Sequence record: OR896822.1
Length of the DNA stretch: 64,000 bases
Reading direction: 5' to 3' (one strand)
From: Salmonella phage vB_SenS-3
Positions 17,608-29,687 of this stretch are shown here, piece by piece. The number at the start of each line of letters is the position of its first letter. Within the stretch, counting starts at the first letter, position 1. The translations under genes were made by a program, and so were the position numbers. The notes beneath the pieces are model-generated. The model saw only the letters and a program-made list of their open reading frames with translations. It had not been told where the DNA came from and searched no databases.

Positions 17608-18237
17608 TAATAGTGGGGTGCCGAAACCACTTATGTAACAACACTGCCGTCCTAGTATAATAGGTATTATTAGGGCTTCACCGCCTGAAGATGTGGGTTC
17701 GAGTCCCACGGTCGGAAAGAGTTGGATAACTGGTGCTTCTAATGGCGAAGCAATCGCAGGCAGTTGCGCACTGCCAAAACCACGCGGTAGTTGGTTCCAG
17801 GCTAACCAACCACTCTTGAAAAGTATATACTACGGTTTTGCTTGTTCAGGAAGCTTCGCATCGAAAATCGGAGGTGCGATTTTATCAGACCGCGTGGAGG
17901 ACGTCTCTCCGTTAAGTGACGAAAAGTGGGACGATTCAGGTAGAGCTGGATATGGAACACCTATACATATGCGGAGTGCGCACAAAGCATATTGCGGTGG
18001 TACTAAACGAAATTAGGAGTCATGACCTGCACAAGTTTAGTATGTCATAACCGATGTACATTCAGTACAAAAACCACTGAAGCTAAGATAGATAGTCACC
18101 TTGACTTAAACTGGAAGATATTGTCTGACGGAAGGGCTGCAGAGCTTAATCTGAGGGGGCTGACCCTACCTACCGTCGGGTATCTTTAAGAGTTCTTACG
18201 AGAACTCTTAAAGATACCTAAACATTAAGGAATACTG
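17608..18237 (+). ncRNA. candidate structured RNA (GC-rich, tRNA-like T-arm at 5' end, several hairpins)
   Basis: No RBS or promoter-proximal start; GTGGGTTCGAGTCCCAC T-arm at 17693-17709 without matching acceptor stem; local GC rise; many stems. Confidence 0.3.
18179..18218 (+). other. perfect 18-bp stem / 4-nt loop hairpin
   Basis: GGTATCTTTAAGAGTTCT / AGAACTCTTAAAGATACC inverted repeat just upstream of the ORF at 18238. Confidence 0.7.
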
Positions 18238-24414: not shown

Positions 24415-24489
24415 GCACCTATCGTCTAATGGTTAGGACATCAGGATTTCAATCTGAGAATTGAACTCCGATTCTCCGTGGGTGTGCCA
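24415..24489 (+). tRNA. tRNA-Glu-like element (anticodon TTC), aberrant T-arm, possible pseudogene
   Basis: D-arm TCGTCTAATGGTTAGGACA and anticodon loop ATTTCAA look Glu-like; T-arm region forms a 6-bp stem with 9-nt loop instead of canonical T-arm. Confidence 0.35.
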
Positions 24490-25783: not shown

Positions 25784-26365
25784 ATGCACGGAATATCCTT
25801 ACCCATTCCAGGGTTTGAGGAGTACTTAGTAAGTTTGGATGGGTTAGTATTTAGTATCAAATCAAACAAAATACTAACCCCAATAACCAGTAATTACGGA
25901 TACTTATCTATACGTCTCCATAAAAATGGTCAACAGAGAAATACCGGTGTACATAGGATTTTAGCATGTGCATTTAAGAAATTACCAAGTCTAGACTCTG
26001 AACTAGAAGTTGACCATATTAACACAGACATTACTTATTGGGGTCTTAATAACTTACAAGTGCTCACAAAAGAGCAGCATCTAGAAAAGACTTTAAAAGA
26101 TAAAGGATTTAGTAAACTAAACCATGATAATTGTTGTAAGGATTGTGGTAAAGCTATTTCTTTAAAAGCTGAAAAATGTCAGGAGTGCTCTTCACATAAA
26201 CCAAAAGATATCTCTATAACTAAAGAAATAATCGAGGTTACAGTAAGAGAGCTAGGCTGGTCAGGTGCAGGGAGAAAGTTAAATTATTCAGATAATGGGT
26301 TGCGTAAAAGATACACTTCTTTAGGAGGCAATCCTAAAGAACTTAAAAAGTTAAAGGTACTATAG
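25784..26365 (+). CDS. HNH endonuclease (NUMOD-like N-terminus, Cys-rich C-terminus)
   Basis: EVDHINTDITYWGLNNLQVLTKEQH HNH motif; CCKDCGKA..C.EC zinc-finger-like tail; 3' end overlaps tRNA-Asp 5' end. Confidence 0.6.
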   Translation: MHGISLPIPGFEEYLVSLDGLVFSIKSNKILTPITSNYGYLSIRLHKNGQQRNTGVHRILACAFKKLPSLDSELEVDHINTDITYWGLNNLQVLTKEQHLEKTLKDKGFSKLNHDNCCKDCGKAISLKAEKCQECSSHKPKDISITKEIIEVTVRELGWSGAGRKLNYSDNGLRKRYTSLGGNPKELKKLKVL

Positions 26366-26430
26366 TCTAACGGTTAGGATACTCCCCTGTCACGGGAGAG
26401 GTAGGGTTTCGATTACCCTTAGTACCGCCA
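26356..26430 (+). tRNA. tRNA-Asp (anticodon GTC)
   Basis: Acceptor GGTACTA/TAGTACC, anticodon loop CTGTCAC, T-loop TTCGATT, CCA. Confidence 0.7.
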
Positions 26431-26436
26431 AATTAT

Positions 26437-26513
26437 ACATCCATAGCTCAACTGGTCAGAGCTACCGCCTCTTAAGCGGAGGGTTGAAGGTTCAAGTCCT
26501 TCTGGGAGTACCA
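26437..26513 (+). tRNA. tRNA-Lys (anticodon CTT)
   Basis: Anticodon loop CTCTTAA, T-arm GAAGG TTCAAGT CCTTC, acceptor 6/7 pairs, CCA. Confidence 0.5.
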
Positions 26514-26715
26514 AACAAATAGAGTAAAGGCTACAGTAGGTGCACCCTTACGGACTGCTACACCGGACTCTATTCATTAACAAACATTCTAGCGTGGTGG
26601 AGAGGGGACACCAGCTGTGCGAGGGTAGAAGCTTGTTCGATTCAAGTGAAAGAATGGTTCTCGTAAATCCGCAGCAGTGATAGTAGGTTCAAGTCCTACC
26701 TAGATTGACTTATTA

Positions 26716-26790
26716 TGCGTTCGTAGTTAAAAGGTATAATTTTTGGTTGCCAACCAGAAGTTGAGGGTTCGATTCCCTCCGACCGCACCA
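26716..26790 (+). tRNA. tRNA-Gly (anticodon GCC)
   Basis: Anticodon loop TTGCCAA, T-arm GAGGG TTCGATT CCCTC, acceptor 6/7, CCA. Confidence 0.55.
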
Positions 26791-27041
26791 AATTTAGGTT
26801 TCTGCTTCCTAGAGAACGGACTCCTAGATAAACAAGGCGATGAGTTTCCGGCCGGTTCTAGTCGCTGAAAATCCTCCCGACCAGGTAGGTGTAGGTAAAC
26901 GAAAGTTTACTTATTGAGTAGGTTCCGATAGATCGGCGGATCTATTCTGGCATTTAAGAGAAGTCTCGCAAACTTCTTTGTCAGCAGAGCGTTTGAAGCG
27001 TGAGGTGGCCTACACAATAAGTAAATTTATTAAAAACTCAT

Positions 27042-27070
27042 TTGCTATTTCACTTAATTCTCTTTATAAT
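27042..27070 (+). promoter_or_regulatory. early-type promoter (TTGCTA N17 TATAAT) driving tRNA operon
   Basis: tRNA-Pro begins 33 nt downstream. Confidence 0.55.
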
Positions 27071-27102
27071 ATATCTTATAAAGTGAGTTAACAAAGAATA
27101 TT

Positions 27103-27180
27103 CTCCGTGTAGCTCAGTTTGGCCAGAGCGTTCCGTTTGGGGCGGTAGGGTCGGGGGTTCAAATCCTCCCACGGAGACCA
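27103..27180 (+). tRNA. tRNA-Pro (anticodon TGG)
   Basis: Acceptor CTCCGTG/CACGGAG, anticodon loop TTTGGGG, T-loop TTCAAAT, CCA. Confidence 0.6.
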
Positions 27181-27186
27181 AACAAT

Positions 27187-27264
27187 TGCGGGTTAGATCT
27201 CTGGTAGAGATCGCTAGTCTCATAAGCTAGAAAGAGGTAGGTTAGATTCCTACACCCGCTTCCA
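27187..27264 (+). tRNA. tRNA-Met (anticodon CAT)
   Basis: D-stem GATC/GATC, anticodon arm CTAGT CTCATAA GCTAG, T-loop TTAGATT, CCA. Confidence 0.55.
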
Positions 27265-27283
27265 ATTTAATAGAGGATACGAA

Positions 27284-27447
27284 ATGAAATTATTTCGATT
27301 GGTAGTAAGTGATAGACGGTCTAGCAAAGATCGTTCGAAGTATACCTTAGCCCATTATGGGAAAGATGAAAATGAAGTAATGGCTGAATTTGGTATTAAT
27401 CATCGCTACTTAGAAGTTTACTCTATTAAGGAAGTTTATCCGTATTA
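27284..27447 (+). CDS. hypothetical small protein
   Basis: 54-codon ORF between tRNAs with AGAGGA RBS. Confidence 0.3.
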
Positions 27448-29362: not shown

Positions 29363-29687
29363 AATCTTGAAGTATGCCGGAATCGGTAGACGGGGCTTCC
29401 TAAAGGGCGTAAGGGGAACATCCACTCCTCATAAGATACCCGAAAACGAGGCTGAGATAACTGGTCTATCTCGTGAAGGTTCGAGTCCTTCTGCTTCTTG
29501 ATATTCATCAATGGCTCAAAGTGTAACGGTGCTATTTGATGCTCTTAGTAAGACTTTCCCGACATGCGTTCGGGAGTAAGCTGCTAAGGCTAGAGTAGAA
29601 GAGTTTCGGAGAGCCGCCACAATTGAAGTCTTTAGAATGGGTATCGCCCTTTAGCCCCTCCGAAAGGGATAACTAGAGATTTCAATT

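What the first reader, a model, noticed from the sequence alone, without database searches (positions are those of the whole stretch)
26514..26715. Unresolved 200-bp interval with two T-arm-like motifs but no foldable tRNA
The interval contains GCTTG TTCGATT CAAGT and GTAGG TTCAAGT CCTAC T-arm-like hairpins and an 8-bp inverted repeat (AATAGAGT..ACTCTATT) enclosing about 50 nt, yet I could not pair any acceptor stem at canonical spacing. Candidates are split or permuted tRNA genes, tRNA pseudogenes, or a small stable RNA.
Basis: seen in the sequence. Interest (0 to 1): 0.5.

Follow-up and report, generated by a model that had tools for sequence, protein, structure and literature searches.

The report
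Phage T5-type tRNA-like RNA2 gene
The interval holds no true tRNA: it holds this T5-like phage's copy of 'RNA2', a conserved tRNA-shaped RNA whose anticodon loop is replaced by a long arm ending in a second T-arm, preceded by a separate conserved 57-nt hairpin, and the function of both is unknown.

Summary
The window is a T5-like Salmonella phage (Epseptimavirus), and the interval lies inside its tRNA operon.

**RNA2 (26586-26710, + strand).** This is the ortholog of phage T5 'rna2'. GenBank AJ604531 annotates it as 'tRNA-like RNA with unknown functions'.
- About 55 nt replace the 7-nt anticodon loop.
- tRNA software and Rfam find nothing here.
- Covariation across about 38 divergent homologs supports every main helix. 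The homologs come from T5-likes of Escherichia, Salmonella, Klebsiella, Erwinia, Pectobacterium, Yersinia, Proteus and Providencia, and from uncultured contigs of up to 360 kb.
- It is not a pseudogene, a split or permuted tRNA, an intron-bearing tRNA or an ORF.

**Upstream hairpin (26518-26574).** This is a separate, unannotated element conserved in the tRNA clusters of three phage families.

**Function.** Unknown for both. My best inference is that RNA2 is a non-decoding tRNA mimic, cut out by tRNA-processing enzymes, whose conserved arm binds a host or phage factor.

The locus is already known, but the family is wider and better defined than its annotation suggests.

The parts
26518..26574 (+). 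Module A: a conserved 57-nt hairpin element, separate from RNA2. Its outer 8-bp stem is AATAGAGT 26518-26525 paired with ACTCTATT 26567-26574, around a near-invariant core CTACAGTAGGTGCACCC.
   Evidence: The sequence was read. blastn finds it in 346 phage records from Demerecviridae, Ackermannviridae and Schitoviridae. In every locus inspected it sits in a tRNA cluster, on the tRNA strand, 3-6 nt after a CCA. The outer stem covaries: TAGAGT/ACTCTA, CAGAGT/ACTCTG, AAGAGT/ACTCTT and CAGAGTG/CACTCTG. It has no Rfam match and occurs once in the window.
26586..26710 (+). The RNA2 gene as a whole: a tRNA-like RNA, ortholog of T5 misc_RNA 'rna2'.
   Evidence: It is 86% identical to T5 rna2 and syntenic with it. 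The homolog in AJ604531 is annotated 'tRNA-like RNA with unknown functions'. My covariance model R1 scores it 134.1 bits, E = 1.7e-31, across 26586-26710.
26586..26592 (+). Acceptor stem, 5' strand (ATTCTAG).
   Evidence: It pairs with 26700-26706. All 7 pairs show changes on both sides across homologs, for example TACGGGG/TCCCGTA in Klebsiella phages and AGACAAT/ATTGTCT in Erwinia phage KEY.
26595..26613 (+). D-arm: stem TGGTG/CACCA with loop GAGAGGGGA, which contains the GG.
   Evidence: All 5 stem pairs show changes on both sides. Variants include TGGTT/AACCA, TGGCT/AGCCA and CGACT/AGTCG.
26614..26618 (+). Stem S, 5' strand (GCTGT). It occupies the position of a tRNA anticodon stem.
   Evidence: It pairs with 26674-26678 (GCAGT). 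All 5 pairs show changes on both sides and 97.7% of cells are paired.
26619..26673 (+). Inner arm of 55 nt that replaces the anticodon loop. In order it contains J1 GCGA; P_in GGGT 26623-26626 paired with ATCC 26667-26670; P2 AGAA 26627-26630 paired with TTCT 26658-26661; T-arm 1; linker GAAAGAATGG 26648-26657; bulge CGTAA 26662-26666; and GCA 26671-26673.
   Evidence: The GGG/UCC pairs (G-C, G-C, G·U) are invariant in 38 of 38 sequences, and GGG was never part of any search pattern. The fourth P_in pair covaries (UA 18, CG 9, other 11). Folding constrained to stem S and T-arm 1 gives the same rod-like arm in most lineages. The natural variant L138 lacks T-arm 1 and the linker and closes P2 with a tetraloop. 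P2 is the weakest helix: only 66% of cells pair in a fixed register.
26631..26647 (+).
   Evidence: A 5-bp stem forms in all 26 sequences parsed, with four different stem sequences: GCTTG/CAAGT, GCTCG/CGAGT, TACGG/CCGTA and ATGGG/CCCAT. Four of the 5 pairs show changes on both sides in the wider family. The T-loop consensus TTCRAYT is kept.
26674..26678 (+). Stem S, 3' strand (GCAGT), followed by the 4-nt variable loop GATA at 26679-26682.
26683..26699 (+). This is the true T-arm of the cloverleaf and abuts the acceptor 3' strand.
   Evidence: Canonical tRNAs align to the model end to end through this arm.
26700..26710 (+). Acceptor stem 3' strand (CTAGATT 26700-26706), discriminator G26707, and tail ACT where a CCA would be.
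   Evidence: 26 of the 28 tRNAs in the window encode CCA, but this RNA does not. Relatives SIY1lw, OSY-STA and KKP_3711 (G-CCA), Klebsiella phages (T-CCA), Erwinia KEY (A-CCA) and Providencia/Proteus phages (A-CCA) do encode it.

Best explanation
**Shown**
- The interval contains two independent non-coding elements of the phage's tRNA operon.
- The main one (26586-26710, + strand) is the ortholog of bacteriophage T5 'RNA2'. It belongs to a conserved family of tRNA-like RNAs.
- It has a complete tRNA shell: a 7-bp acceptor stem, a D-arm, a 5-bp stem in the anticodon-stem position, a 4-nt variable loop and a T-arm.
- The 7-nt anticodon loop is replaced by a roughly 55-nt irregular helical arm. 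From the base outwards this arm has an internal loop, an invariant GGG(Y)/(R)UCC helix with a G·U pair, a (N)GUAA bulge, a short variable helix, and a second T-arm at the tip followed by a GG-containing linker.
- It therefore cannot decode.

**Inferred from established tRNA biology**
- It is co-transcribed with the upstream tRNA-Asp and tRNA-Lys genes.
- RNase P releases its 5' end, because RNase P recognises the acceptor/T-arm stack and the T-loop/D-loop elbow. The tRNA 3'-end machinery trims its 3' end.
- In this phage a CCA would have to be added after transcription, or is dispensable.
- The linker GG probably docks on T-loop 1 as G18/G19 dock on the T-loop of a tRNA. That would give the RNA a second 'elbow' at the far end of the arm.

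**Inferred function (about 0.25 confidence on its own)**
- The mature RNA acts in trans as a tRNA mimic.
- Its conserved arm binds, and titrates or redirects, a conserved tRNA-binding protein of the host or phage.

**The second element**
- The upstream 57-nt hairpin (26518-26574) is a separate conserved small element of phage tRNA clusters. Its function is unknown.

The confidence figure refers to the identity and structure, not to the function.
For: **Identity**
- The window is 99.9% identical to Epseptimavirus phages.
- Window 26583-26697 aligns to T5 at 86% identity (99 of 115), over the region T5 annotates as misc_RNA rna2. The neighbours match too: RNAIV and promoter P13a lie downstream.
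- AJ604531 annotates the homolog as 'tRNA-like RNA with unknown functions'.

**tRNA shell**
- Model R1 aligns the window's canonical tRNAs end to end at 15-29 bits simply by deleting the roughly 50-nt inner domain.
- When the inner arm is replaced by a synthetic 7-nt loop, ARAGORN calls a tRNA in 8 of 10 lineages.

**Structure**
- On 43 aligned sequences, 91.9% of cells pair against 61.6% in shuffles.
- The covariation score is 0.71, against 0.17 for shuffles and at most 0.12 for slid controls.
- The acceptor (7 of 7 pairs), D stem (5 of 5), stem S (5 of 5) and T-arm 1 (4 of 5) all show changes on both sides.

**Inner arm**
- GGG/UCC is invariant and the fourth pair covaries between U-A and C-G.
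- Constrained folds agree between lineages.
- The L138 variant shows that T-arm 1 sits at the tip of the arm.

**Operon context**
- No sigma-70-like promoter lies on the + strand between 25400 and 27041.
- In 18 of 21 further lineages the homolog lies on the tRNA strand inside a tRNA cluster, often 1-10 nt from a tRNA.

**Not coding**
- The only overlapping ORF (26540-26680, 46 aa, GTG start) spans two elements that occur independently of each other.
Against: - I had no expression or end-mapping data. The GenBank notes call RNA2 'tRNA-like' but call RNAIV and RNA2H 'stable', so RNA2 may never have been seen as a band.
- The window copy has a T·T mismatch in the acceptor stem and no CCA.
- The P2 helix needs different registers in different lineages and pairs only 66% of cells in a fixed register.
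- An alternative local hairpin, GG...CC around a CUCGUAA loop, cannot be excluded for some lineages.
- The members outside Demerecviridae were found with a pattern containing GTAANTCCGCA. The invariance of that motif outside Demerecviridae is therefore partly due to how they were found.
- Nothing found here identifies a binding partner. No complementary target site exists in the window.
- T5 mutants with deletions in the tRNA region are reported as non-essential deletions (PMC11464382), although none of the deletions I could read about covers rna2.
Confidence: 0.85

Rival explanations
1. It acts only in cis, as a processing or punctuation signal. On this view the tRNA-like shell exists only so that RNase P and 3' nucleases cut the polycistronic transcript here, and the released RNA has no function of its own.
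For: It lies between tRNAs and downstream RNAs or ORFs in the operon. In some relatives an ORF with a ribosome-binding site follows directly. The acceptor sequence is free to vary.
Against: A plain tRNA-like hairpin would be enough for that job. Here the non-tRNA inner arm is the most conserved part. GGG/UCC, the T-loop of T-arm 1 and the linker GG are kept from T5-likes to contigs of 360 kb, at GC contents of 0.39-0.63. The flanking context differs between lineages while the RNA stays the same.
Confidence: 0.1
2. It is an intron-containing tRNA gene, for example a tRNA-Thr. The arm would be excised by an unknown mechanism to give a decoding tRNA.
For: ARAGORN in intron mode at a relaxed threshold calls 26586-26707 a tRNA with a 43-nt intron. 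The bulge is always NGUAA, which resembles G35-U36-A37-A38 of threonine tRNAs. In T5-type sequences, removing the tip would leave a GGGC/GUCC stem with a CUCGUAA loop. A tRNA-Thr gene follows immediately in several lineages.
Against: - ARAGORN's stem register exists only in the window sequence and not in T5 or other homologs.
- The insertion is far too short for a group I intron, and Rfam finds no intron or ribozyme.
- The position corresponding to U33 is not conserved: lineages have CC, CA, AC, UA and others.
- The resulting anticodon arm would have two stacked helices, stem S plus P_in, about twice the normal length.
- The supposed intron is more conserved than the supposed exons.
- The shell is not specifically similar to the phages' tRNA-Thr genes.
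Confidence: 0.03
3. It consists of decayed tRNA gene remnants, that is pseudogenes or a fusion of two tRNA fragments, with no function.
For: There are two T-arm motifs but no anticodon loop. The window copy has no CCA and an acceptor mismatch. The 5' part up to T-arm 1 resembles a tRNA closely enough that one genome annotates it as tRNA-Arg(ccg), and ARAGORN repeats that call in 2 of 26 sequences.
Against: Compensatory changes occur in every main helix. The element is kept in more than 400 phage genomes and in very distant lineages. The alternative acceptor pairing CATTCT/AGAATG, which the two-fragment reading needs, is absent in Klebsiella and Erwinia homologs.
Confidence: 0.03
4. It encodes a small protein. 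The candidate is the 46-aa ORF at 26540-26680, which several genome records annotate as a hypothetical protein.
For: The ORF exists. Some records place a CDS over this stretch.
Against: The ORF starts with GTG and begins inside module A, which is absent from most genomes that carry RNA2. Substitutions follow base-pairing, not codon structure. Indels of 1-6 nt occur within it.
Confidence: 0.01

Closest known systems
Bacteriophage T5 / Salmonella phage 5 'RNA2' (misc_RNA rna2 in GenBank AY692264 and AJ604531)
   Same: It is the same gene. It shares 86% identity, the same boundaries (CATTCTAG...CTAGAATGAC), the same strand and the same neighbourhood in the tRNA region.
   Different: - In this phage a tRNA-Gly(GCC) gene plus about 125 nt lies between RNA2 and RNAIV, and module A lies upstream.
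- Stem S, T-arm 1 and T-arm 2 carry compensatory substitutions.
- The window copy has a T·T mismatch in the acceptor stem where T5 has a G·T pair one position along.
T5 'RNA1' (144 nt; homolog at window 29368-29499)
   Same: It is another tRNA-like RNA of the same operon with a large insertion in place of the anticodon loop. It shares the short motifs GGTTGAGATA and AAATGG with some RNA2 variants.
   Different: It has a class II (long variable arm) shell and no inner T-arm. Model R1 does not detect it as a homolog.
Phage T4 RNAC and RNAD (species 1 and 2 RNAs)
   Same: They are small stable RNAs encoded at the end of a phage tRNA cluster, with tRNA-like 3' parts. Their functions are still described as unknown (PMC9697503).
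   Different: They are not homologous. R1 gives only 14.8 bits on rnaC, below the score of ordinary T4 tRNAs.
tmRNA tRNA-like domain
   Same: It has an acceptor stem and T-arm, with a long helix replacing the anticodon arm.
   Different: RNA2 keeps a full D-arm. It has no pseudoknots and no tag reading frame, and it is about a third of the size. ARAGORN and Rfam tmRNA models find nothing.
Bacterial Y-RNA-like YrlA (tRNA-like module)
   Same: It is a non-decoding RNA that imitates the tRNA elbow (from my own knowledge of the family).
   Different: In YrlA the RNA ends lie at the anticodon side and the acceptor is closed by a loop. In RNA2 the ends form the acceptor stem. No Rfam match appears at E<=10.

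Membership tests
T5 RNA2 family (tRNA-like RNA of Demerecviridae tRNA regions) | Sequence orthology to the annotated T5 / phage 5 rna2 | tested here: met
   It shows 86% identity over 115 nt to T5 rna2. R1 scores it 134.1 bits, against 144.5 bits for T5 itself.
T5 RNA2 family (tRNA-like RNA of Demerecviridae tRNA regions) | Position in the tRNA region, on the tRNA strand, upstream of RNAIV and promoter P13a | tested here: met
   The order in the window is tRNA-Asp, tRNA-Lys(CTT), RNA2, then the RNAIV homolog at about 26916-27016 and a P13a-like promoter at 27042-27070.
T5 RNA2 family (tRNA-like RNA of Demerecviridae tRNA regions) | Accumulates as a discrete processed RNA in infected cells | not testable with these tools
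   No expression data were available. The original T5 papers are not in the searchable library.
Canonical tRNA (Rfam RF00005) | Acceptor stem, D-arm and T-arm at canonical spacing | tested here: met
   Shown by the segment parse, by end-to-end alignment of real tRNAs to R1 and by the shell test.
Canonical tRNA (Rfam RF00005) | A 7-nt anticodon loop on a 5-bp stem, and detection by tRNA models | tested here: not met
   55 nt lie between the strands of stem S. ARAGORN and Rfam make no call, and 24 of 26 homologs are not called either.
Canonical tRNA (Rfam RF00005) | Encoded 3' CCA, as in the other tRNAs of this phage | tested here: not met
   The tail is G-ACT, whereas 26 of 28 window tRNAs have CCA. 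Several relatives do encode CCA.
tRNA gene with a group I intron | A self-splicing intron of about 200 nt or more, with P1-P9 helices, in the anticodon loop | tested here: not met
   The insertion is 55 nt. There is no Rfam intron or ribozyme match at E<=10.
Split or permuted tRNA gene | The 3' half is encoded upstream of or apart from the 5' half | tested here: not met
   All shell elements are colinear in the normal order.
tmRNA | A tRNA-like domain plus a tag-peptide reading frame and pseudoknots | tested here: not met
   ARAGORN's tmRNA search, including permuted forms, finds none. Rfam tmRNA models match only 17-nt T-loop fragments at E of 4.7-8.8.

The most novel reading that the evidence does not exclude
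On this reading the RNA2 family is a widespread, so far unrecognised class of phage tRNA mimics that act in trans. The tRNA shell gets the RNA processed and stabilised. The long arm then acts as a decoy or adaptor for a conserved tRNA-binding protein. The arm displays an invariant GGG/UCC helix with a G·U pair, an NGUAA bulge that resembles positions 34-38 of threonine-type anticodon loops, and a second tRNA-like elbow about 20 bp from the first. Candidate partners are a tRNA-targeting defence nuclease, threonyl-tRNA synthetase or the t6A machinery. Module A, shared by three phage families, could be a second RNA of this kind.
Probability: 0.15. Interest if true: 0.8.

Novelty: already known. 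Interest (0 to 1): 0.4.

Why it matters
- **An old open question.** Small stable RNAs encoded beside phage tRNA genes (T4 RNAC/RNAD and the T5 RNAs) have had no known function for decades.
- **What this locus adds.** T5 RNA2 is not a lineage-specific oddity. It belongs to a structurally well-defined family found in many tRNA-rich phages, it is missing from Rfam, and it is unannotated or mis-annotated in hundreds of genomes as 'hypothetical protein' or 'tRNA-Arg'.
- **How it can be tested.** The covariation-supported model gives concrete handles: the conserved arm, the G·U pair, the NGUAA bulge and the second T-loop. The natural variant without T-arm 1 is another.
- **Timeliness.** T5 tRNAs have recently been shown to counter tRNA-cleaving defence systems.
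- **Practical use.** The result also offers a simple fix for annotation pipelines.

Tried and rejected
1. **Two separate tRNAs or tRNA halves.** The pairing CATTCT/AGAATG would close a first half around T-arm 1. It exists only in T5-type sequences and is absent in Klebsiella and Erwinia homologs.
2. **A GCG/CGC extension of stem S with a bulged A.** The 5' partner varies (G, C or T) against an invariant C.
3. **A CGAG/CTCG pairing.** It is broken in the GCT and CTT variants.
4. **An anticodon-arm-like hairpin GG...CC with a CUCGUAA loop.** I could not exclude it. It is disfavoured because L138 keeps UCC but lacks the GG segment, and because the position corresponding to U33 is not conserved.
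5. **Antisense target of the 14-mer CTCGTAANTCCGCA.** The window holds no target beyond chance.
6. **Homologs in bacterial or archaeal genomes.** Two scans found none.
7. **A version of normal tRNA size with the same shell.** None was found in viral contigs.
8. **Homology to T4 RNAC.** Rejected.
9. **Descent of the shell from tRNA-Thr.** Not supported. The apparent excess of tRNA-Thr genes immediately downstream rests on about four independent cases.
10. **A Brochothrix phage blastn hit.** It is an ordinary tRNA-Arg.
11. **RNA2-like genes in the Ackermannviridae and Schitoviridae loci that carry module A.** None was found.
12. **Literature searches.** Searches for T5 RNA2 and for tRNA-like decoys found nothing relevant in the library. 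My recollection that PARIS also cleaves tRNA-Thr was not borne out by the paper.

Full report
**Where the window comes from.** The stretch 26300-27300 is 99.8-99.9% identical to Salmonella phages S113, gmork and vB_SenS-3, which are T5-like phages (Demerecviridae, Epseptimavirus). The finding lies in the phage's tRNA region. ARAGORN finds 28 tRNA genes on the + strand between 17.6 and 31.6 kb, and Rfam finds 27. The interval 26514-26716 is the gap between tRNA-Lys(CTT), 26437-26513, and tRNA-Gly(GCC), 26717-26790.

**Checking the observation.**
- Both T-arm-like motifs are there, at 26631-26647 and 26683-26699.
- The inverted repeat is there too, at 26518-26525 and 26567-26574, with 41 nt between the arms.
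- No tRNA, tmRNA or other Rfam family is detected in the interval, even at E<=10.
- As a single strand the 203 nt fold no better than shuffled sequence (z = +0.49). The case therefore rests on comparison with other sequences.

**The interval contains two independent elements.** blastn against 50,697 phage records splits it in two.
- Positions 26521-26575 (module A) occur in only some T5-like phages, but also in unrelated phages.
- Positions 26581-26712 (module B) occur in essentially all T5-like phages.
- Module B keeps sharp boundaries (CATTCTAG ... CTAGAATGAC) while its flanks differ. Upstream it may follow a tRNA CCA directly. Downstream it may be followed by RNAIV, a tRNA or an ORF with a ribosome-binding site.

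**Module B is T5 RNA2.**
- The T5 st0 record AY692264 annotates six misc_RNAs in the tRNA region.
- Module B aligns at 86% identity to 'rna2', and the segments downstream align to RNAIV and promoter P13a.
- The phage 5 record AJ604531 from the same laboratory labels the homolog 'RNA2, tRNA-like RNA with unknown functions'.
- In nearly all of the other records among the 473 that match, the stretch is unannotated or is called a hypothetical protein.
- In Enterobacter phage KKP_3711 the first 70 nt are called tRNA-Arg(ccg). ARAGORN reproduces that artefact in 2 of 26 homologs by using the inner T-arm.

**Anatomy of RNA2, in window coordinates.**

| Element | Sequence | Coordinates |
|---|---|---|
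| Acceptor stem | ATTCTAG / CTAGATT (one T·T) | 26586-92 / 26700-06 |
| D-arm | | 26595-26613 |
| Stem S | GCTGT / GCAGT | 26614-18 / 26674-78 |
| Variable loop | GATA | 26679-82 |
| T-arm 2 | | 26683-99 |
| Discriminator and tail | G, then ACT | 26707, then 26708-10 |

Stem S follows the D-arm directly and is followed by the variable loop, so it sits exactly where an anticodon stem sits. It encloses 55 nt instead of 7:

| Inner-arm element | Sequence | Coordinates |
|---|---|---|
| J1 | GCGA | 26619-22 |
| P_in | GGGT / ATCC | 26623-26 / 26667-70 |
| P2 | AGAA / TTCT | 26627-30 / 26658-61 |
| T-arm 1 | | 26631-47 |
| Linker | GAAAGAATGG | 26648-57 |
| Bulge | CGTAA | 26662-66 |
| 3' junction | GCA | 26671-73 |

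**Evidence for the tRNA shell.**
- A covariance model built from 26 homologs (R1) scores the window copy 134 bits.
- The same model aligns the phage's ordinary tRNAs end to end at 15-29 bits, simply by deleting the roughly 50-nt inner domain.
- Swapping the inner arm for a synthetic 7-nt loop makes ARAGORN call a tRNA in 8 of 10 lineages.

**Evidence from covariation.**
- Within Demerecviridae alone the acceptor stem is completely replaced between lineages. It is ATTCTAG/CTAGAAT in T5-likes, GTTCTAG/CTAGAAC in KKP_3711, TACGGGG/TCCCGTA in Klebsiella Sugarlandvirus phages and AGACAAT/ATTGTCT in Erwinia phage KEY.
- The D stem, stem S and both T stems also change in a compensatory way.
- A last scan of viral contigs, followed by the model, added about 20 more lineages. 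These include Providencia and Proteus T5-likes and uncultured contigs of 86-363 kb with GC contents of 0.39-0.63.
- On the resulting alignment of 43 rows, five of which are ordinary tRNAs that contribute only to the shell helices:
  - 91.9% of cells pair, against 61.6% in shuffles.
  - The covariation score is 0.71, against 0.17 for shuffles and at most 0.12 for slid controls.
  - The acceptor (7 of 7 pairs), D stem (5 of 5) and stem S (5 of 5) all show changes on both sides.

**Evidence for the inner arm.**
- The GGG of P_in was never part of a search pattern, yet it is invariant and always faces UCC (G-C, G-C, G·U). The fourth pair switches between U-A (18) and C-G (9), with 11 exceptions that are mostly U·U.
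- Folding with only stem S and T-arm 1 constrained gives the same rod-like arm in most lineages.
- One natural variant, L138, lacks T-arm 1 and the linker and closes P2 with a tetraloop. This places T-arm 1 at the tip of the arm.
- P2 is the weakest part, because its register shifts between lineages and only 66% of cells pair in a fixed register.
- I could not fully exclude a competing GG...CC hairpin around CUCGUAA.
- Caveat: the members outside Demerecviridae were found with a pattern containing GTAANTCCGCA. The invariance of that motif is demonstrated only within Demerecviridae, whose members were found by blastn or by other patterns.

**How RNA2 probably works.**
- *Shown.* It is a conserved structured RNA gene on the tRNA strand with no promoter of its own. 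The nearest + strand promoter-like site is the P13a homolog downstream. In 18 of 21 additional lineages it sits inside a tRNA cluster, often within 10 nt of a tRNA.
- *Inferred from established tRNA biology.* RNase P recognises the acceptor/T-arm stack and the elbow, so it should cut at 26585/26586. The 3' end should be trimmed like a tRNA's.
- *The CCA.* Several clades encode one (SIY1lw, OSY-STA and KKP_3711 G-CCA; Klebsiella T-CCA; Erwinia KEY A-CCA; Providencia/Proteus A-CCA). T5 and this phage have G-ACA or G-ACT, although 26 of this phage's 28 tRNAs encode CCA. The CCA is therefore either added after transcription or dispensable.
- *No decoding.* There is no anticodon loop, and the arm is roughly 2.5 times the length of an anticodon arm.
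- *No conserved charging identity.* The acceptor sequence and the discriminator vary freely, so no synthetase identity set is conserved there.
- *Where selection acts.* The most conserved parts are in the arm, and the linker GG is placed to cap T-loop 1 as G18/G19 cap a tRNA T-loop (inference). I therefore read the shell as a processing and stability module and the arm as the working end. The arm would be a binding surface for a conserved protein, making the RNA a tRNA mimic, decoy or adaptor. I give that functional reading about 0.25.
- *The bulge.* It is always NGUAA, which resembles G35-U36-A37-A38 of threonine-type anticodon loops. The position corresponding to U33 is not conserved, and the shell is not specially related to tRNA-Thr, so this remains only a lead.

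**Rival explanations.**
- *Pseudogene or fused fragments.* Contradicted by the covariation and by the breadth of conservation.
- *Intron-containing tRNA.* ARAGORN's relaxed intron call uses a stem register that exists only in this sequence. The insertion is too short for a group I intron, has no Rfam match, and is more conserved than the shell.
- *Protein-coding.* The 46-aa GTG ORF at 26540-26680 bridges two elements that occur independently, and it does not fit the substitution and indel pattern.
- *Cis-only processing signal.* This remains possible, at about 0.1. It does not explain why the non-tRNA arm is the best-conserved part.

**Module A (26518-26574).**
- This hairpin is found in 346 phage records. 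Those at 90% identity or more are T5-likes. About 237 match at 82-85%; every such record listed is an Ackermannviridae phage (Kuttervirus, Taipeivirus, Limestonevirus). One is a Schitoviridae phage.
- In every locus inspected it sits in a tRNA cluster, on the tRNA strand, a few nucleotides after a CCA. In phage UTK0001 it fills a 72-nt slot between tRNA-Gln and tRNA-Met.
- Its outer stem covaries, and its core CTACAGTAGGTGCACCC is almost invariant. Two lineages replace the palindrome GGTGCACC with GTGCGCAC, which is also a palindrome.
- It is unannotated in every record I inspected (a few matching records place a 'hypothetical protein' CDS over it), and it has no Rfam match.
- I did not resolve its inner fold or its function.

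**Comparison with what is known, and verdict.**
- The locus is the already annotated T5 RNA2, so the finding is not new as a feature.
- Its nearest analogues in kind are T5 RNA1, which also has an insertion in the anticodon position, and T4 RNAC/RNAD. The T4 RNAs are still described as having unknown functions (PMC9697503) and are not homologous to RNA2.
- RNA2 fails the defining tests for a tRNA, a tmRNA, an intron-bearing tRNA, a split tRNA and a permuted tRNA.
- This analysis adds a covariation-supported structure with a second T-arm at the tip of the arm. It also extends the family to many tRNA-rich phages, and it shows that the neighbouring hairpin is a separate element conserved across phage families.

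Noticed in passing
window 26518-26574: Module A is a 57-nt hairpin with a near-invariant core CTACAGTAGGTGCACCC. It is conserved in the tRNA clusters of Demerecviridae, Ackermannviridae and a Schitoviridae phage (346 records). It is unannotated in the records I inspected and absent from Rfam. It may be a new small RNA or processing element.
   Followed up: partly
window 29368-29499: This is the homolog of T5 'RNA1'. ARAGORN in intron mode calls it a tRNA with a 41-nt intron. It looks like a class II tRNA shell with about 46 nt in place of the anticodon loop, which would make it a second tRNA-like RNA of the same design in this operon.
   Followed up: partly
window 26791-27070: Downstream of tRNA-Gly lie about 125 nt (26791-26915) that are also conserved in phage SIY1lw. 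They are followed by the homolog of T5 'RNAIV' (about 26916-27016, a stable RNA of unknown function) and a P13a-like promoter (27042-27070).
   Followed up: no
window 17645-17718: ARAGORN calls a tRNA-SeC(tca) here. Rfam scores it as a weak tRNA (33 bits) and it has no encoded CCA. It could be an opal-suppressor-like tRNA or a tRNA-like RNA.
   Followed up: no
window 24415-24486: Rfam finds a tRNA here (35.2 bits) that ARAGORN does not report. It lies directly after tRNA-Tyr, where relatives carry tRNA-Glu and tRNA-Trp.
   Followed up: no
L138 1051-1153 (IMGVR_UViG_3300032322_002195): This is a natural RNA2 variant that lacks T-arm 1 and the GG linker. The arm is closed by a GAAGT-AGTT-ACTTC hairpin instead. 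It could serve as a minimal form for experiments.
   Followed up: partly
L084 1201-1270 (Enterobacter phage KKP_3711); L088 383-529 (Yersinia phage phiR2-01 g056); L002 741-881 (vB_SenS-3): Public records mis-annotate RNA2. One calls the first 70 nt tRNA-Arg(ccg), and the others place hypothetical-protein CDSs over it.
   Followed up: yes
L087 1562-1635, L136 3119-3193, L127 8533-8607, L129 1313-1388, L142 475-550, L140 4993-5068: In several lineages a tRNA-Thr gene follows the RNA2 homolog, directly in most of them and within about 40 nt in L140. These amount to roughly four independent cases, more than I would expect by chance. The RNA2 shell is nevertheless not specially similar to tRNA-Thr.
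   Followed up: partly
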